Of a DNA stretch of 64,000 nucleotides, positions 3,391 to 55,140 are shown one piece after another (position 1 is the stretch's first letter; every line of letters begins with the position of its first letter). This DNA is from Octopus sinensis (Eukaryota). Position numbers and translations under genes: made by a program. The DNA is taken from assembly GCF_006345805.1 (NCBI RefSeq), contig NC_043001.1:76136001-76200000 (forward strand), in the 5' to 3' direction. Under the pieces are notes generated by a model. The model saw nothing but the letters and a program-made list of their open reading frames with translations, searched no databases and was not told the origin of the DNA.

Positions 3391-3792
3391 TCTTTTACTT
3401 GTTTCAGTCACTTGACTGTGGCCATGCTGGAGCAACGCCTTTAGTCGAGCAAATCGACCCCAGGACTTATTCATTGTAAGCCTAGTACTTATTCTATCGG
3501 TCTCTTTTGCTGAACCGCTAAGTTACGGGGACGCAAACACACCAGCACCGGTTGTCAAGCGATGTTGGGGTGGGGAACACAGATGCACAAACATACACAC
3601 ACACACACACATATATAATATATATATATACGACAGGCTTCTTTCAGTTTCCATCTACCAAATCCACTCACAAGGCTTTGGTTGGCTCGAGGCTATAGTA
3701 GGAGACACTTGCCCAAGGTGCCACGCAGTGGGAGTGAACTTGGAACCATGTGGTTGGTAAGCAAGCTACTTACCACACAGCCACTCCTACGC
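3391..3792 (-). mobile_element. tRNA-derived CORE-type SINE, family B, with internal (TA)/(CA) microsatellite
   Basis: Head GGCGTAGGAGTGGCTGTGTGGTAAG (A-box-like), CORE-like GCACCTTGGGCAAGTGTC, tail ...GACTGAAACAAGTAAAAG. Confidence 0.9.
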
Positions 3793-7155: not shown

Positions 7156-7166
7156 ATATAATATAT

Positions 7167-7917
7167 ATAATTAATCAATATAGGGTGGCAAAAAATTTCG
7201 TAGAATTTTTTTGCCACCAGCGGCCTAGTGGGAAAAAATTAAATAGTCATAGACCATTTATAAATTCAACATCAAAATCAAGGAACGGCCATAATAGGCC
7301 ATTCACCCACTAGAAATAACAGCCAAAGCTTCAACCGCAAAACAACATTAATTCCGCAAACCAGGAGAAAATTAAAAAAACATTTACCCTGTAGTTCCTT
7401 ATACGATGCACCGTTTCATCTATTGATTTTGATGTTGAATTTATAAATGGTCTATGACTATTTAATTTTTTCCCACTAGGCCGCTGGTGGCAAAAAAATT
7501 CTACGAAATTTTTTGCCACCCTATATTGATTAATTATGAATTTTCTGGTTAATTCCGTAATGGAATCGGCGGCTTATATTTGCTGCCGATAAATTTGGCG
7601 CGATTGCGATGATTTGAAAATTTTAGGTCAGATATTGCCGAGACAGTGATTGAAGTGCCTCGTGTAAATATCTGCTCCGATCTGGCTGTTCTTACTGACG
7701 AATCTATCGGCCTATGGAAGACTAGCTTGATTTAATTTAATCAGGTTAGTTTACCATTAAACAATAGATGAAACGGTGCATCGTATAAGGAACTACAGGG
7801 TAAATGTTTTTTTAATTTTCCCCTGGTTTGCGGAATTAATGTTGTTTTGCGGTTGAAGCTTTGGCTGTTATTTCTAGTGGGTGAATGGCCTATTATGGCC
7901 GTTCCTTGATTTTGATG
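7167..7917 (+). mobile_element. Non-coding hammerhead-ribozyme retroelement (retrozyme or Penelope pLTR-like) with 5' inversion, inserted in (TA)n
   Basis: 7167-7281 is the reverse complement of 7423-7537; 7270-7425 is the reverse complement of 7762-7917; (TA)n on both sides; hammerhead at 7688-7793. Confidence 0.8.
7688..7793 (+). ncRNA. Type I hammerhead ribozyme, intact core
   Basis: Stem I GTTCTTA/TAAGGAAC; CUGACGA 7695-7701; stem II ATCTAT/ATAGAT with a 14-bp inner hairpin containing G-U pairs; GAAA 7770-7773; stem III ACGG-UGCA-UCGU; GUA cleavage triplet 7783-7785. Confidence 0.85.
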
Positions 7918-8146
7918 ATATATATATATATATATATATTATCTACATGCTTTCAAGCACTCTACTTAATTCTGTATTTATATATTAACGAGCAGGAATG
8001 AAAAACGGAACCGAATGAAAGAATGAAATATTGAAAGAATTGAAGAATAAGAAAATAAAGACGCAAACAAACATGAAAAGAAGAAATGTGAGAAAAATGC
8101 ATGAGAGTTTTACCAATGAAAGAAAAAAGACTAAGAGAGAGAAGGG

Positions 8147-10244: not shown

Positions 10245-10566
10245 TTTACTTGTTTGTCATTTGACTGCGACCATGACATTTTTAAGCTTGCTACTTATTC
10301 TATCGGTCTCTTTTACCGAACTGTTAGGTTACGGGGATGTAAACACACCAACACTGGTTATCATGGTGGGGATGGGCACAGACACAAGCAAACACACACA
10401 CCTTTATATAAGACGGGCTTCTTTCGATTCCGTCTACCAAATCTGCTCACAAGGCTTTGGCCGGCCTGAGCCTATTGGGAAACACCTAAGTTGCCCCGCA
10501 GTGGAACTGAAACCGAAACCATGTGGTTGGGAATCAATTTTCTTACAACACAGTCACGCCTGCGCC
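10245..10566 (-). mobile_element. SINE family B, degenerate
   Basis: Matches family B blocks (TACTTATTCTATCGGTCTCTTT; CACAAGGCTTTGG; ACCATGTGGTTGG). Confidence 0.8.
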
Positions 10567-12504: not shown

Positions 12505-12773
12505 TCACGTGGCTGTGTGGTTAGAAAGTTTGCTTTGCAACCAGATGGTTTCGGGTTCAGTTGCACGGCACCTTTTCTTTCTTTTATTTGTTTCAGTCAT
12601 TTTACTGCGGCCATGCTGGAGCACCGCCTTTAGTCGAACAAATCGACTCCAGGACTTATCGGTCTCTTTTGCCGAACAGCTAAGTTACGGGGACGTAAAA
12701 ACCCCAACATCGGTTGTCAAGCGATGATGGAGGGACAAACACAGACACACAAAGATATACACACACACACATA

Positions 12774-19934: not shown

Positions 19935-20268
19935 CTTTTACCTTTTACTTATTTCAATCATTGGGGCACCGCCTTGAATGGTTTTAGTCGAGTAAATCGA
20001 CCCCAGGACTTATTTTTCAAAGCCTGGTGCTTATTCTATCGGCCTCTTTTGCCGAACCGCTAGGTTATGGGGACGTAAACACATCAACACCGGTTGTTGA
20101 GCAGTGGTGGGGGTCAAACAAAGACACAAACACTCGCACATATAGATATATACATATATATCAGCCCGAGGTTATAGTAGAAGGCATTTGCCCAAGGTGC
20201 CACGCAGTGGGACTGAACCCAGAACCATGTGGTTAGGAAGGAATCTTCTTACCACACAGCCACGCCTA
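19935..20268 (-). mobile_element. SINE family B with internal deletion
   Basis: Sequence match to family B. Confidence 0.85.
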
Positions 20269-27057: not shown

Positions 27058-27462
27058 ATATGTATCGTGAATGTATATGTATTAAGTATTGACCCAAAAT
27101 GTTTGTTACCTTCATAATTCTAGCTTTGCTCCGTGTTTAAGTCGAATCCCAGTTTTTACAGTTAAAACCAAGTATAAAATATTGCGAAATACTGTAGTGA
27201 CAATAAGTAATTCTTTCTCATTTCGGAACAGGACCAGTTTATAATGATTGTTTCAAATTTTAACACAAGGACACAAATTTTAGGGAGAGAGAGTTTGACG
27301 ATTAAATCAACCCAGTACTTACTTTTAAACCTGTTATTTATTCTGTAGGTCTCCTTTGCCGAACCGATATGTTACGGGGAAGTAAGTAAACAGACTAAAC
27401 CCGCTTGTCAAGCGTTGGGAGTGGAACTAGACAAACTCAAAGACACACAGACATACACGCTT

Positions 27463-30624: not shown

Positions 30625-31355
30625 GCAGACAGACAGACAGACAGACAAACAGATACATAAATTGATTGACAGATGGATAGATGAATACATCGATGGATAC
30701 ATATAAACAGACAGACAGACAGATAGCTAGAGAGGCAGGTGGTGCATTAAAAGCAGCAACGATCGACAATCAGTAGAGCCCGTGATATTTCTCATGATTT
30801 GGGACAAGCATAGCTTTAAACTTATAGTTATATAAGTAAATTTCGAATATTTATTATGCAATAATGGCATTACTTACGCTTATTCCTAATGAAACAGCTG
30901 GTGAAAGTGATTAGATTGTAAAACATCTGTGAAATGTATGCCTTTCTGTTTTTTATTCTAAATAAGCTTAGAAACCACACTCGGTGTGGACTTTTTAGCT
31001 AGCTCCTGCAGAGGGCTAGTTGTGCCTGCGGCCCAAAACTACACTGAGCTAAATAGCATGACAATAATACGTCTATAATGACTATATGCCTGGCGGTGTT
31101 TGATCAGAGGTTAAGGGAGGATAAGAATTAATTCTGTAGTGCAATTATTCTATTTTTCCAGAAAAAGCAACCCAAATGCTTTTATATCAGATCCCAATGC
31201 TGGATGTTAAATAACCAAATGAGGGGGCAAATTTTCAATCCCGGGATCATCCTGATTCCAAAAAGATATAATGTGTCTATGTAGAGCAAATGTAGATTGT
31301 GATACAGGGGTCCCAGACGGACCCCTGTAGAATTTCTCTTTTATTATTAAAGATA

Positions 31356-31999
31356 TAAAGTATAAAAGCCATCTCAATATGGCTAACCACAAAGTGGGGT
31401 GTTACTGTAGCTTTTTAGCCCCAGGAGATCATCGTTTCCAGCTGGTTTTAGACACACTTTCTGTGCCCTTGAAGTATTTGCAAAGGGAGGCCATCCCTTC
31501 CTCGCAAGATGATCTCCTGGGGCTAAAAAGCTACAGTAACACCCCCACTTTGTGGTTAGCCATTTTGAGATGGCTTTTATACTTTACATTGTCGAGCTGT
31601 TACTGTTTACATCTCGCTCTGAGATTTAATAATGCTTACAGTCAGTTTTTCGAAATCAGTGGCAGACGTCACTAGAAAAACTCTTATATATTTGCAAAGC
31701 AGGCCTTGTCTTTCATCGTGACCTGGTGGTTACCGCCCGTTGATAAGAGACAATAATCTCGAAACCGGTCCGTGCGTATCACTCAGGCTTGCGAGGAAGG
31801 GATGGCCTCCCTTTGCAAATACTTCAAGGGCACAGAAAGTGTGTCTAAAGCCAGCTGGAGACGATGATCCCCTGGGGCTAAAAAGCTACAGTAACCCCCC
31901 CCCCCCCACTTTGTGATTAGCCATATTGAGATGGCTTTTATACTTTACATTGTTGAGTGGTTACTGTTTACATCTCGCTCTGAGATTTGATAATACTTA
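31356..31999 (+). mobile_element. Non-coding hammerhead retroelement (about 355-nt monomer plus terminal direct repeat, 5' inversion, 15-bp TSD)
   Basis: 31356-31508 is the reverse complement of 31788-31947; 31508-31638 is repeated directly at 31863-31999; TSD TTATTAAAGATATAA at 31344-31358 and 31997-32011. Confidence 0.8.
31734..31776 (+). ncRNA. Minimal type I hammerhead-like motif (core mutated)
   Basis: CGCCCG-TTGATAA-GAGA-CAATAA-TCTC-GAAAC-CG-GTC-CGTGCG: stems I and II, palindromic ACCGGU stem III, GUC triplet; core UUGAUAA instead of CUGAUGA. Confidence 0.65.
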
Positions 32000-32113
32000 T
32001 TAAAGATATAAGTTGGTCTAAAGTAGTGCTTTTTGTGTGTTTCGTACATCATCACTTTTTTAATGTATATTTATATATACATGCATGTGTGTGTATGTGT
32101 GTGTGTGTGTGTG

Positions 32114-38924: not shown

Positions 38925-39698
38925 TACACACACACACACAGATACACATAGGTTTAGTGATGCGAACAGGAAAATGGAACCCAAAACATAACTATATATA
39001 TATTATTATTCTATTCTTTTAATCTTTTTACTTGTTTCACTCATTTGACTGGAGCACCACTTTGAAGGGTTTTAGTCGAACAAATCGACCCCAGGAGTTA
39101 TTTCTTAAGCCTAGTACTTATTCTATCGGTCCGTTTAGCCGAACCGCTAAGTTGCGGGGATGTAAACATACCAACACCGGTTGTCAAACAGTGATGAGGG
39201 GGAAAAAGAAAGACACAAGGACACACACACACACATGAGTCTATAGTAGAAGACACATGCCTAGGGTGTCACGCGGTGGGACTGAACCCAGAACCACGTG
39301 GTTGAGAAACAAGCTTCTTATTACACAGTCACACACACACACACAAATACACACACACATATATATAGGTATGTACGCATGTATCTATGTATATATATAT
39401 ATGTGTGTATATACATATACGTGTGTGTTAGAAACAGAGAATGAGTAAATAAAACATGTGGTACCGCTTTAGAACATTTGGTTTACAATTTAAACATAGT
39501 GCAGAATAGTTTTAGTAAATACATACATATATACATATATGCATACTGTACATACACATACATACATGTATTAACATATAGACATAATACGTATTACATA
39601 CATACATACGTACATACATACATACATACATACATAACTGAATGCATAAATACATACATACATACATACATACATACATACATACATACATACATACA

Positions 39699-54324: not shown

Positions 54325-55140
54325 TGTCCGTTTCATCTGATGTTTGATACCGTATGCATGTATTTCTGTGTATCAATATTTCATTTTGCTTACAACAGCC
54401 TGTTCTTTTGGTCAAACTATCGTATCTCCAGCTGCTTCAGATACCAAAATGCAAAAGCTGTCAAAGCTGTAGTACAACGGTTTAACATTTTTCAAAAGTG
54501 TAGTAAGTCCCCACATACGACAATATCATACCTGCATGGAGTAACGATTTCATATACCCAACAAAATATTATTGTTAAGCTGAAATTGTTGCTAATGTAA
54601 AAGGAAATGGAATGGTGAAATTATTTTTCGTTTTCTGAAAAAAACAACGGAGGATTACGTTCTGAATTCAAATTCCATGGAGATCAGCATTGACTTTCAT
54701 ACTTCTTAGTTTCGATAAAATGTAAATGGGGTAGATTTATCATTCTTATAAATTATCTAAGATCTAAAAGGAATCATAAAAACACATTATTCATTCTTCC
54801 TTTTTCGTTTTTTTTTTCTTTTTATTTACATTTTATTTTTTATATTTTGTACCAATCATTGAAAGTAAAAGTGGTCTTGGGGCACCACCTTAAAGAGCAG
54901 GATCTTAGTTGAGTAAATCGATCCTAATACTTGTTATTTTCTTAAAGTCTGCTACTTATTTTATCAGTGTATTTTACCGAACCACTAAATTACTGAGATG
55001 TAAACAAACCAGCACTGGTTATCAAACGGTGTGGGGAACAGTGATCAAGACATACACGCTAAGATACACTCATACATAGATATGTATCTACATAGGTGTG
55101 TGTGTGCGCGCGGGGGGGGTGTATTCCTAGATAGATAGAC

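What the first reader, a model, noticed from the sequence alone, without database searches (positions are those of the whole stretch)
31344..32011. 355-nt ribozyme monomer with terminal direct repeat, 5' inversion and 15-bp TSD
Seen in sequence: the layout is inverted(B+C)-C-D-[hammerhead]-B-C-D with a period of 355 nt (31508 versus 31863), bounded by TTATTAAAGATATAA on both sides. It has the same architecture as the 7.2-7.9 kb element but unrelated sequence. Established: long variable TSDs and 5' inversions mark target-primed reverse transcription. Inference: a second retrozyme-like family copied for more than one round around a circular or tandem RNA.
Basis: partly seen in the sequence, partly recalled or inferred. 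Interest (0 to 1): 0.75.

Follow-up and report, generated by a model that had tools for sequence, protein, structure and literature searches.

The report
Ribozyme-bearing Penelope-type mini retroelement insertion
This is one copy of a short, non-coding jumping element that carries a hammerhead ribozyme motif and was likely pasted in by the enzymes of Penelope-like retrotransposons; it is an ordinary member of a known class, present in thousands of mostly truncated copies in this animal genome.

Summary
Window 31344-32011 has identical 15-nt direct repeats around an inverted arm (31353-31508) and a direct arm (31508-31999) of a 355-nt unit. A hammerhead motif lies at 31722-31792, with the predicted cut after 31770.

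The unit is a dispersed family in this 2.7-Gb genome. One 30-mer near its 3' end occurs 6100 times; the hammerhead occurs about 366 times.

Copies show the published insertion signature of Penelope-like elements (PLEs):
- heavy 5' truncation and partial tandems;
- an adjacent inverted arm;
- variable 8-17-nt target duplications;
- two fixed 3' ends 48 nt apart, the PLE "tail".

Of 50 two-armed insertions with both ends classifiable, 49 carry one end of each kind. No PLE ORF is attached, yet arms run past one unit, so the template repeated the unit.

The hammerhead has a U3-A8 core and a palindromic loop 3, implying a dimer-type ribozyme, with compensatory changes between subfamilies. Intact PLE ORFs exist elsewhere in the genome, but no partner was identified.

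Whether the template was circular or tandem, and whether the ribozyme cleaves, could not be tested. Verdict: a new member of the known metazoan "non-LTR retrozyme" / non-autonomous PLE class. The scan has noted similar elements on other genomes.

The parts
31344..31358 (.). left copy of the 15-nt target-site duplication TTATTAAAGATATAA
   Evidence: family D5, 100% identical to 31997-32011
31353..31508 (-). inverted arm: unit positions q281-355 followed by q1-82, sense strand on the minus strand. Its 3' end (start site A, ..CTTTACAT) faces the left flank. Its last 6 nt overlap the TSD by imperfect microhomology (ATATAA against ATGTAA).
   Evidence: arm 157 nt, 97% to the family majority sequence
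31508..31999 (+). direct arm: q1-355 followed by q1-131 (1.37 units). It ends at start site B (..AATACTTA); its last 3 nt (TTA) are shared with the TSD.
   Evidence: 486 unit positions, 96%
31722..31792 (+). type I hammerhead motif. Helix I 31726-31739 with 31771-31790. Core U3-U4-G5-A6-U7-A8-A9 at 31740-31746. Helix II 31747-31750 with 31757-31760. G12-A13-A14 at 31761-31763. A15.1-CCGG-U16.1 at 31764-31769. C17 at 31770, with the predicted cut after 31770.
   Evidence: HH9, 35.2 bits, E 5.8e-7, below the gathering score of 52; my own descriptor, the only hit in the window; conservation and compensatory changes; predicted dimer through ACCGGU
31951..31999 (+). the 'tail': the stretch between start site A (q82) and start site B (q131), present at the right end of this insertion only
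   Evidence: arm ends cluster at q66-92 or q111-140; 49 of 50 classifiable two-armed insertions have one of each; Frangieh 2024 and Craig 2021 for the meaning of the tail
31997..32011 (.). right copy of the 15-nt target-site duplication

Best explanation
Window 31344-32011 is one insertion of a 355-nt, ORF-less repeat family that carries a type I hammerhead motif and was likely mobilised in trans by the reverse transcriptase/endonuclease of Penelope-like elements (PLEs), that is, a metazoan 'non-LTR retrozyme'.

Inferred course of the event:
1. A staggered double-strand cut was made 15 bp apart in AT-rich DNA.
2. Both freed 3' ends primed cDNA on family RNA at two fixed internal start sites that share the motif UUACA. 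Site A (q82) gave the left, inverted arm. Site B (q131) gave the right arm. The 48 nt between the sites are the PLE 'tail', which therefore sits at one end only.
3. The right cDNA ran 486 nt, more than one unit, so its template repeated the unit: either a read-through transcript of a partial-tandem parent or a circularised monomer.
4. The left cDNA ran 157 nt.
5. The two cDNAs were joined head to head at 31508 with 1 nt of overlap, and gap repair produced the duplication.

The hammerhead (U3-A8 core, palindromic loop 3) is predicted to act as a dimer between neighbouring or separate copies and would trim multimeric RNA to monomers.

Shown here: the anatomy, the family, the fixed ends and their pairing, the duplications, the absence of an ORF, the compensatory changes in the hammerhead, and intact PLE ORFs in the genome.

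Inferred: that a PLE enzyme did the copying, the order of events, ribozyme activity, and the topology of the template.
For: Family size:
- A one-unit query gave 137 matches from the 40 scored of 3130 first-look candidates, 82-100% identical.
- 30-mers at up to 2 mismatches: q47-76 occurs 6100 times, q319-348 966 times and q137-166 146 times.
- The hammerhead 32-mer occurs 366 times. Every reversed control gave 0.

Arm architecture:
- In 74 loci taken without regard to length, arms face outward. These were the 79 loci behind the first 100 perfect hits, minus 5 duplicates of one composite.
- The arms end at q66-92 (A) or q111-140 (B).
- Two-armed units in this sample: 33 A/B, 1 A/A, 0 B/B. In 58 further loci: 16 A/B and no like pairs.
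- Single arms end 22 at A and 10 at B.
- Inner junctions vary, mostly with 0-7 nt of overlap.
- The two arms of one insertion are 94.5% alike, against 89.5% to arms elsewhere, in 40 of 40 comparisons.
- Target duplications: 31 of 84 units, mode 12 nt, range 8-17, control mean 3.2. A further 17 units sit in low-complexity repeats.
- 17 of 115 arms exceed one unit.

No coding capacity:
- The longest stop-free stretch in three joined units is 102 aa.
- A PLE ORF fragment lies in the flanks of 2 of 155 family loci, outside the element.

Agreement with the literature:
- Craig 2021, PMC8557442, passages read: 5' truncation, partial tandems, an adjacent inverted 5'-truncated copy, and a tail often at one end only.
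- Frangieh 2024, PMC11167929, main text read: both DNA strands are cut and extended, RT starts at two adjacent internal sites, and the tail is the stretch between them.

PLEs in this genome: 5029 GIY-YIG candidates, 150 scored, 147 matches. [quoted passage not shown]

Hammerhead:
- U3 and A8 are present in 37 of 37 copies.
- 96.4% of pair cells are paired, against 21-46% when partners are slid.
- 5 pairs show changes on both sides, in 11 cells; 0 of 500 shuffles reach that cell count.
- Loop 3 is palindromic in 51 of 69 copies, as CCGG, CUAG, CCGCGG or CUGCAG.
- The predicted dimer is -42.9 kcal/mol, against -37.8 for two monomers, with a 6-bp intermolecular ACCGGU helix.
- The unit folds at -116.8 kcal/mol, z -4.9.
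Against: - The hammerhead match is below Rfam's gathering score (35.2 against 52), and no cleavage was tested.
- No autonomous partner was found. The unit shows no similarity to 36 PLE loci, apart from three separate insertions of diverged relatives. That is a sample of more than 5000 candidates.
- Neither Rfam (six PLE loci, E up to 0.1) nor my descriptor (36 loci) finds a hammerhead in those PLE loci.
- 29 of 79 two-armed units have at least one arm end outside the A or B windows. I did not resolve these.
- A clean duplication was found in only 31 of 84 units.
- No RNA evidence. All runs offered were contigs whose RNA label is a guess.
- The 48-nt tail is longer than the published 30-40 bp.
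Confidence: 0.85

Rival explanations
1. A full retrozyme cycle operates. Hammerhead-cleaved monomers are ligated into 355-nt circular RNAs, and the PLE reverse transcriptase runs round the circle from site A or B, which yields arms longer than one unit. This is a sub-case of the best explanation that fixes the template topology.
For: - Arms longer than one unit make up 17 of 115 in the length-blind sample.
- Long genomic arrays that could supply multimeric transcripts were not seen. There are no same-strand pairs among the 100 listed q137-166 hits and only 3 same-strand hammerhead pairs among 100 listed hits.
- The unit is strongly self-paired (z -4.9), as described for retrozyme circles (PMC7229834, passages read).
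- Inner arm ends pile up just 3' of the predicted cut: 20 of the 31 ends lying within q230-300 fall in q264-286, P 2.4e-4. The median A-arm length of 173 nt equals run-off at the cut.
Against: - No arm clearly exceeds about 1.75 units, except L168 at 2.8 units. There the two central units are 99.7% alike while the end pieces are 95-97%, so a later duplication explains it as well. A circle predicts no such cap.
- Parents with two hammerheads exist, and a transcript starting just upstream of the first would suffice.
- The pile-up of ends was not repeated in the second sample (3 of 9), and it has no sharp edge at q264: ends also fall at q255-258. RT stalling in the hammerhead hairpin fits equally.
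- In vitro, a PLE did not need hammerhead cleavage to insert (PMC11167929).
Confidence: 0.35
2. These are ordinary 5'-truncated tail-end copies of an autonomous Penelope-like element, with the 355-nt unit being its pLTR plus the first bases of the ORF. On this reading there is no separate non-autonomous family.
For: - Every structural hallmark is that of a PLE insertion.
- A short ATG-led frame (21 codons) starts 24 nt after the cut, where a PLE ORF would start in the anole element (PMC11167929).
- Only 36 of more than 5000 PLE candidates were compared.
Against: - Arms that pass one unit return to the same 355-nt sequence instead of entering an ORF.
- There is no long ORF in joined units.
- PLE ORF fragments lie near only 2 of 155 loci, and outside the element.
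- No sequence similarity to the sampled PLEs was found.
Confidence: 0.08
3. A LINE-mobilised SINE-like element with classical twin priming, or a DNA-level foldback or satellite rearrangement.
For: Variable-length duplications and 5' inversions also occur with LINE-1 twin priming (recalled, not read here).
Against: - There is no poly(A) or simple-repeat 3' tail.
- The inverted arm starts at a fixed site rather than at a random internal one.
- The strict pairing of one A end with one B end (49 of 50) has no counterpart in twin priming.
- Variable inner junctions with fixed outer ends, together with 5' truncation gradients (6100: 966: 146), argue against a DNA transposon or a satellite.
Confidence: 0.03

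Closest known systems
Metazoan non-LTR retrozymes (Cervera and de la Pena 2020, PMC7229834, passages read; Li, Clavereau and Pollet 2026 preprint 10.64898/2026.07.22.740005, abstract and one section read)
   Same: Unit of 150-450 nt (here 355). GC under 50% (44.8%). Type I hammerhead in each unit. No ORF, LTR, PBS or PPT. Duplications longer than 4 bp. Co-occurrence with PLEs. A strongly self-paired monomer.
   Different: Here the copies are dispersed, at most about 1.75 units per arm (one 2.8-unit case), and mostly two-armed. Arrays from dimers up to 62-mers were described for a coral. Expression as circular RNA is not shown here. A sequence link to a PLE pLTR, as shown for Xenopus, was not found here.
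Insertion units of endonuclease-positive Penelope-like elements (Craig et al. 2021, PMC8557442; Frangieh et al. 2024, PMC11167929)
   Same: 5' truncation; partial tandem; an adjacent inverted 5'-truncated copy; a tail at one end; two internal RT start sites; AT-rich or microsatellite targets; a hammerhead upstream of the start sites.
   Different: There is no RT/GIY-YIG ORF in the element. The tail is 48 nt rather than 30-40 bp. The pairing of one tailed and one untailed end is nearly obligatory here (49 of 50), whereas the in vitro work saw no difference in start site between the strands.
Type I hammerheads of metazoan repeats and PLEs (Cervera and de la Pena 2014, PMC4209133, passages read)
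   Same: Helix I of 6 bp. Helix II of 4 bp. A 1-bp helix III with a palindromic 4-nt loop that implies a dimeric active form. The U3-A8 core covariant, described there for a Schistosoma PLE.
   Different: Here U3-A8 is fixed across the family (37 of 37 copies), with a CUGAUGA core in one diverged relative (L180). Loop 3 changes between four palindromes.
Plant LTR retrozymes (Cervera et al. 2016, PMC4918200, search listing and abstract only)
   Same: Non-autonomous, hammerhead-bearing, and thought to pass through circular RNA.
   Different: The plant elements have type III hammerheads inside LTRs, a PBS and PPT, 4-bp duplications and Ty3/Gypsy mobilisation. None of these apply here.
LINE-1 twin priming
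   Same: A head-to-head inverted 5' part inside one target duplication, made by priming from both DNA strands.
   Different: In twin priming the second primer lands at a variable internal site of the same RNA. Here both arms start at fixed sites, and there is no poly(A).

Membership tests
Metazoan non-LTR retrozyme | type I hammerhead motif in each unit | tested here: met
   The motif is below Rfam's gathering score, but core and helices are conserved, with compensatory changes.
Metazoan non-LTR retrozyme | short (150-450 nt), low-GC, non-coding unit | tested here: met
   355 nt, GC 44.8%, longest stop-free stretch 102 aa in three joined units
Metazoan non-LTR retrozyme | tandem arrangement (dimers to multimers) | tested here: inconclusive
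   Arms cover 0.1-1.75 units; 17 of 115 exceed one unit. One arm has 2.8 units. No long arrays were seen among the listed hits.
Metazoan non-LTR retrozyme | expressed as self-cleaved, circularised RNA | not testable with these tools
   Only contigs of runs whose RNA label is a guess were available.
Metazoan non-LTR retrozyme | co-occurrence with autonomous PLEs | tested here: met
   intact 775- and 781-aa ORFs with RVT_1 and GIY-YIG.
PLE-type insertion (non-autonomous derivative) | [quoted passage not shown] | tested here: met
   Ends at q66-92 or q111-140; 49 A/B, 1 A/A, 0 B/B among 50 classifiable two-armed units. 29 further units had an unclassifiable end.
PLE-type insertion (non-autonomous derivative) | 5' truncation, partial tandem, adjacent inverted 5'-truncated copy, variable target duplication | tested here: met
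   counts 6100: 966: 146 along the unit.
PLE-type insertion (non-autonomous derivative) | 3' module shared with an identified autonomous PLE | tested here: not met
   No similarity to 36 sampled PLE loci. The sample is under 1% of candidates, so the partner remains unknown.
Autonomous Penelope-like element | RT plus GIY-YIG ORF inside the element | tested here: not met
Hammerhead ribozyme (Rfam clan CL00010) | score at or above a family's gathering threshold | tested here: not met
   HH9 at 35.2 bits against 52. The U3-A8 core and the missing loop 3 cost score.
Hammerhead ribozyme (Rfam clan CL00010) | conserved core (C3/G8 or the covariant U3/A8, U4 G5 A6, A9, G12 A13 A14, A15.1-U16.1, H17) and three helices | tested here: met
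   The U3-A8 variant is documented in PMC4209133.
Hammerhead ribozyme (Rfam clan CL00010) | self-cleavage after H17 | not testable with these tools
   Only an indirect and unreplicated hint from arm 5' ends.
Plant LTR retrozyme | LTRs with type III hammerhead, PBS, PPT, 4-bp TSD | tested here: not met
   Type I motif, no LTR organisation, duplications of 8-17 nt.

The most novel reading that the evidence does not exclude
Every two-armed insertion uses each of the two internal RT start sites exactly once, one per DNA strand, and both arms come from the same template pool. That implies an asymmetric PLE ribonucleoprotein, probably a dimer, that sets one active site at A and the other at B. The drop in arm 5' ends right after the predicted hammerhead cut would then be a genomic footprint of self-cleavage in vivo, with arms longer than one unit made on religated circles.
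Probability: 0.3. Interest if true: 0.6.

Novelty: new member of a known kind. Interest (0 to 1): 0.35.

Why it matters
The element itself is ordinary: another hammerhead-bearing, PLE-dependent mini retroelement.

Its value is as a clean natural data set for a poorly understood mechanism. The unit is short and the copies are young and numerous, so both ends and the inner junction of hundreds of insertions can be read.

That turns the loosely described 'tail at one end' into a near-absolute rule (49 of 50). It also shows that both arms of an insertion come from the same source (40 of 40). Any model of PLE integration has to explain both constraints, and they differ from the strand-neutral start-site use seen in vitro.

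For annotation, it warns that thousands of 100-200-nt fragments and small palindromes in this genome are stumps of one family.

Tried and rejected
- **Rfam at gathering thresholds over the whole window:** no match.
- **RNA evidence:** no RNA holder listed. The contigs of X1, X2, X3 and X7, whose RNA label is a guess, hold family pieces but show no start, end, circle or back-joint.
- **Empty-site test:** I laid X17-X20. No listed joint skips 31359-31996, and the right flank had no cover at all. One 109-nt contig of X19 bridges the left junction exactly, so the insertion is present there. This gives nothing for or against an empty allele.
- **Partner search:** the unit against 30 GIY-YIG loci and 6 longer PLE loci gave only three separate insertions of diverged relatives.
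- **Hammerheads in PLE loci:** no hammerhead at E up to 0.1 in six PLE loci, and none with my descriptor in 36 loci.
- **Notes of this scan for this genome:** none.
- **5'-end hot spot after the cut:** significant in sample 1 but not repeated in sample 2. Apparent ends at q261 and q218 in diverged subfamilies are breaks of the alignment, not ends.
- **Length of A arms against B arms:** no difference (19 of 49, P 0.15).
- **L168 as proof of rolling-circle copying:** rejected, because its central units are 99.7% alike and its end pieces 95-97%.
- **Identity between the repeated parts of one arm:** 88-99%. This does not separate a circular from a tandem template.
- **The 7.2-7.9 kb element:** inverted arms inside a TA microsatellite, but no hammerhead at E up to 1 or by my descriptor.
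Full report
**What is in the window.**
- The 15-mer TTATTAAAGATATAA stands at 31344-31358 and again at 31997-32011.
- Between the two copies, 31353-31508 is the reverse complement of 31788-31950 (113 nt at 96% plus 47 nt at 96%).
- 31508-31638 recurs at 31863-31999 (95% and 93%). The period is 355 nt, or 361 after a poly-C indel.

I number the unit q1-355 from 31508. In these terms the left arm is q281-355 followed by q1-82 on the minus strand. The right arm is q1-355 followed by q1-131 on the plus strand. The two arms meet at 31508 with 1 nt of overlap. Each arm's 3' end faces a flank.

**The ribozyme motif.**
- The default Rfam scan finds nothing in the window.
- A permissive scan of 1 kb gives Hammerhead_HH9 at 31722-31792, 35.2 bits, E 5.8e-7. 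The gathering score is 52.
- The core reads U3 U4 G5 A6 U7 A8 A9 ... G12 A13 A14. So the C3-G8 pair is replaced by U3-A8.
- Helix III is A15.1-U16.1 closing the palindrome CCGG. The predicted cut is after C17 at 31770.
- A descriptor of my own finds this as the only such motif in the window.

The literature covers both unusual features. Type I hammerheads with a 1-2-bp helix III and a small palindromic loop are the usual metazoan form and are thought to act as dimers. U3-A8 is a described covariant in a Schistosoma PLE. Both points come from PMC4209133, passages read.

Conservation across the family supports a constrained structure:
- U3 and A8 are present in 37 of 37 copies from 30 loci.
- On 69 copies (68 distinct), 96.4% of pair cells are paired, against 21-46% when partners are slid by 1-3 columns.
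- Five pairs show changes on both sides: 3-8, 10.2-11.2, 10.4-11.4, one in helix I and one in loop 3. These cover 11 cells, a count that 0 of 500 shuffles reach.
- Loop 3 is palindromic in 51 of 69 copies, as CCGG, CUAG, CCGCGG or CUGCAG.
- Genome-wide, the listed hammerhead variants are the same paired combinations.
- A co-fold predicts a dimer at -42.9 kcal/mol, against -37.8 for two monomers, with the two ACCGGU stretches paired.
- The whole unit folds at -116.8 kcal/mol, z -4.9.

The copies are closely related, so the covariation is modest evidence. No cleavage was tested.

**A dispersed family.**
The window lies on contig C5 of a 2.72-Gb assembly. A one-unit query found 3130 first-look candidates, of which 40 were scored, giving 137 matches at 82-100% identity. 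Counts of 30-mers at up to 2 mismatches fall steeply along the unit towards its 5' side:

| Segment | Matches |
|---|---|
| q47-76 (near the 3' end) | 6100 |
| q319-348 | 966 |
| q137-166 | 146 |
| degenerate 32-mer of the hammerhead, up to 1 mismatch | 366 |

Every reversed control gave 0. Most copies are therefore 5'-truncated stumps without the ribozyme. Part of the gradient may reflect better conservation of the 3' module between subfamilies.

**Anatomy of the copies.**
I took two samples.
- Sample 1 is every locus behind the first 100 listed perfect matches of the q47-76 pattern: 79 loci. I dropped five loci (L085, L091, L101, L112, L124) because they repeat one small composite that is kept as L071.
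- Sample 2 is the loci behind the first 100 listed matches of the q319-348 pattern. 58 of these loci were new.

Findings on the arms:
- **Outer ends.** Arms always face outward, minus arm then plus arm. Their outer ends fall in two narrow windows: A at q66-92 (..CUUUACAU) and B at q111-140 (..GCUUACA). The two sites are 48 nt apart and share the motif UUACA.
- **Pairing of ends.** There were 79 two-armed units. Of these, 49 have one A end and one B end, 1 has two A ends, none has two B ends, and 29 have at least one end outside both windows. I did not resolve the last group.
- **Against chance.** Single arms end 22 at A and 10 at B. Independent draws at those frequencies would give about 43% mixed pairs (my arithmetic).
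- **Inner junctions.** They differ from copy to copy: 29 of 49 show 1-19 nt of overlap, 6 show none, and 14 have 1-14 nt of filler.
- **Same source.** The two arms of one insertion are more alike (94.5%) than arms of different insertions (89.5%), in 40 of 40 comparisons.
- **Target duplications.** Exact, not low-complexity flanking repeats of 8-17 nt (mode 12) bound 31 of 84 units, against a mean of 3.2 in mismatched-flank controls. A further 17 units lie between simple repeats.

**Comparison with known systems.**
This is the published insertion signature of Penelope-like elements.
- Craig et al. 2021 (PMC8557442, passages read) list strong 5' truncation, partial tandems, an inverted 5'-truncated copy next to the 5' end, and a 30-40-bp tail often present at one end only.
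- Frangieh et al. 2024 (PMC11167929, main text read) studied a purified PLE protein. It cuts and extends both DNA strands. It starts reverse transcription at two adjacent internal sites of the RNA, and the tail is the stretch between them.

Sites A and B and the 48 nt between them fit that description.

The genome holds many PLEs:
- 5029 GIY-YIG candidates, 150 scored, 147 matches.

**Not an ordinary pLTR.**
- Arms that pass one unit return to the same 355 nt instead of entering an ORF. This is so for 17 of 115 arms in sample 1, for three arms of about 1.7 units in the first set, and for one arm of 2.8 units with three hammerheads (L168).
- Three joined units have no stop-free stretch over 102 aa.
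- PLE ORF fragments lie within the 1.0-1.5-kb flanks of 2 of 155 family loci, both outside the element.

The family is therefore non-autonomous. This matches the 'non-LTR retrozymes' of animals (PMC7229834, passages read) and the recent proposal that these are non-autonomous PLE derivatives (preprint 10.64898/2026.07.22.740005, abstract and one section read).

I could not name the partner. The unit shows no similarity to 36 sampled PLE loci, a small sample of the candidates.

**Circular or tandem template.**
This stays open.
- For a circle:
  - the fraction of arms longer than one unit;
  - the absence of long genomic arrays among listed hits;
  - the compact fold of the monomer;
  - a pile-up of arm 5' ends just 3' of the predicted cut: 20 of the 31 ends lying within q230-300 fall in q264-286, P 2.4e-4;
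  - a median A-arm length of 173 nt, which equals run-off at the cut.
- Against a circle, or neutral:
  - the pile-up was not repeated in sample 2 (3 of 9);
  - the pile-up has no sharp edge, with ends also at q255-258, and RT stalling in the hammerhead hairpin would explain it;
  - arms stop at about 1.75 units, with several 5' ends at q174-215 just upstream of the hammerhead, so a linear full-length RNA from a two-hammerhead parent fits;
  - in L168 the central units are 99.7% alike and the end pieces 95-97%, as a later duplication would give;
  - hammerhead cleavage was dispensable for PLE insertion in vitro.

RNA data could not decide. Only contigs were served, and their RNA label is a guess. 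The empty-site test was also blank.

**Verdict.**
It needs one correction: this is the Penelope-type insertion form, not a twin-priming inversion. It is a new member of a known class.

The point a specialist might use is the near-obligatory pairing of one tailed and one untailed end per insertion, together with the common source of both arms.

Earlier notes of this scan describe similar hammerhead-bearing PLE stumps on other genomes. I used them as leads only.

Noticed in passing
window 7160-7931: A second composite with long inverted arms (7256-7428 against 7759-7931, 173 nt at 96%; 7160-7281 against 7423-7544, 122 nt at 98%) sits inside a TA microsatellite. No hammerhead at E up to 1 in Rfam or with my descriptor.
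   Followed up: partly
L147:318-1102 (G000 C2, about 195.844 Mb): A normal B-ended arm is preceded by seven to eight tandem copies of an 88-89-nt sub-unit (q310-355 joined to q1-43). This is a short-period array built from the junction of two units.
   Followed up: no
L071, L085, L091, L101, L112, L124 (also at the edge of L148): The same tiny composite (minus arm q17-82 joined to plus arm q108-126) recurs at six or more loci. It also appears as a frequent loose end in the DNA-like runs, so one particular insertion seems to have been re-amplified as part of something larger.
   Followed up: no
L168:222-1219 (G000 C8, about 14.416 Mb): An arm of 2.8 units with three identical hammerheads of a diverged subfamily (loop 3 CUGCAG). 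The two central units are 99.7% alike and the end pieces 95-97%.
   Followed up: yes
L180:1331-1411 and L173:908-988: Diverged relatives of the unit carry other hammerhead forms. One has the canonical CUGAUGA core (C3-G8); both have loop 3 CUGCAG. The 3-8 pair therefore covaries within the wider family.
   Followed up: partly
L061, L063, L065 and many places listed: A PLE family with an intact 780-781-aa RT plus GIY-YIG ORF is present at many loci with identical domain scores. This suggests recent activity. Several copies abut microsatellites.
   Followed up: partly
window 31225-31322: The left flank of the insertion is itself a repeat. Contigs of all laid runs cover it at about 90% identity and stop at 31322.
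   Followed up: no
window 3477-3573, 10283-10379, 12639-12735, 20019-20115, 27326-27422, 39106-39202, 54944-55040: Seven copies (62-85% alike) of a roughly 97-nt stretch, probably part of a SINE-like repeat, are scattered over the window (family D20).
   Followed up: no
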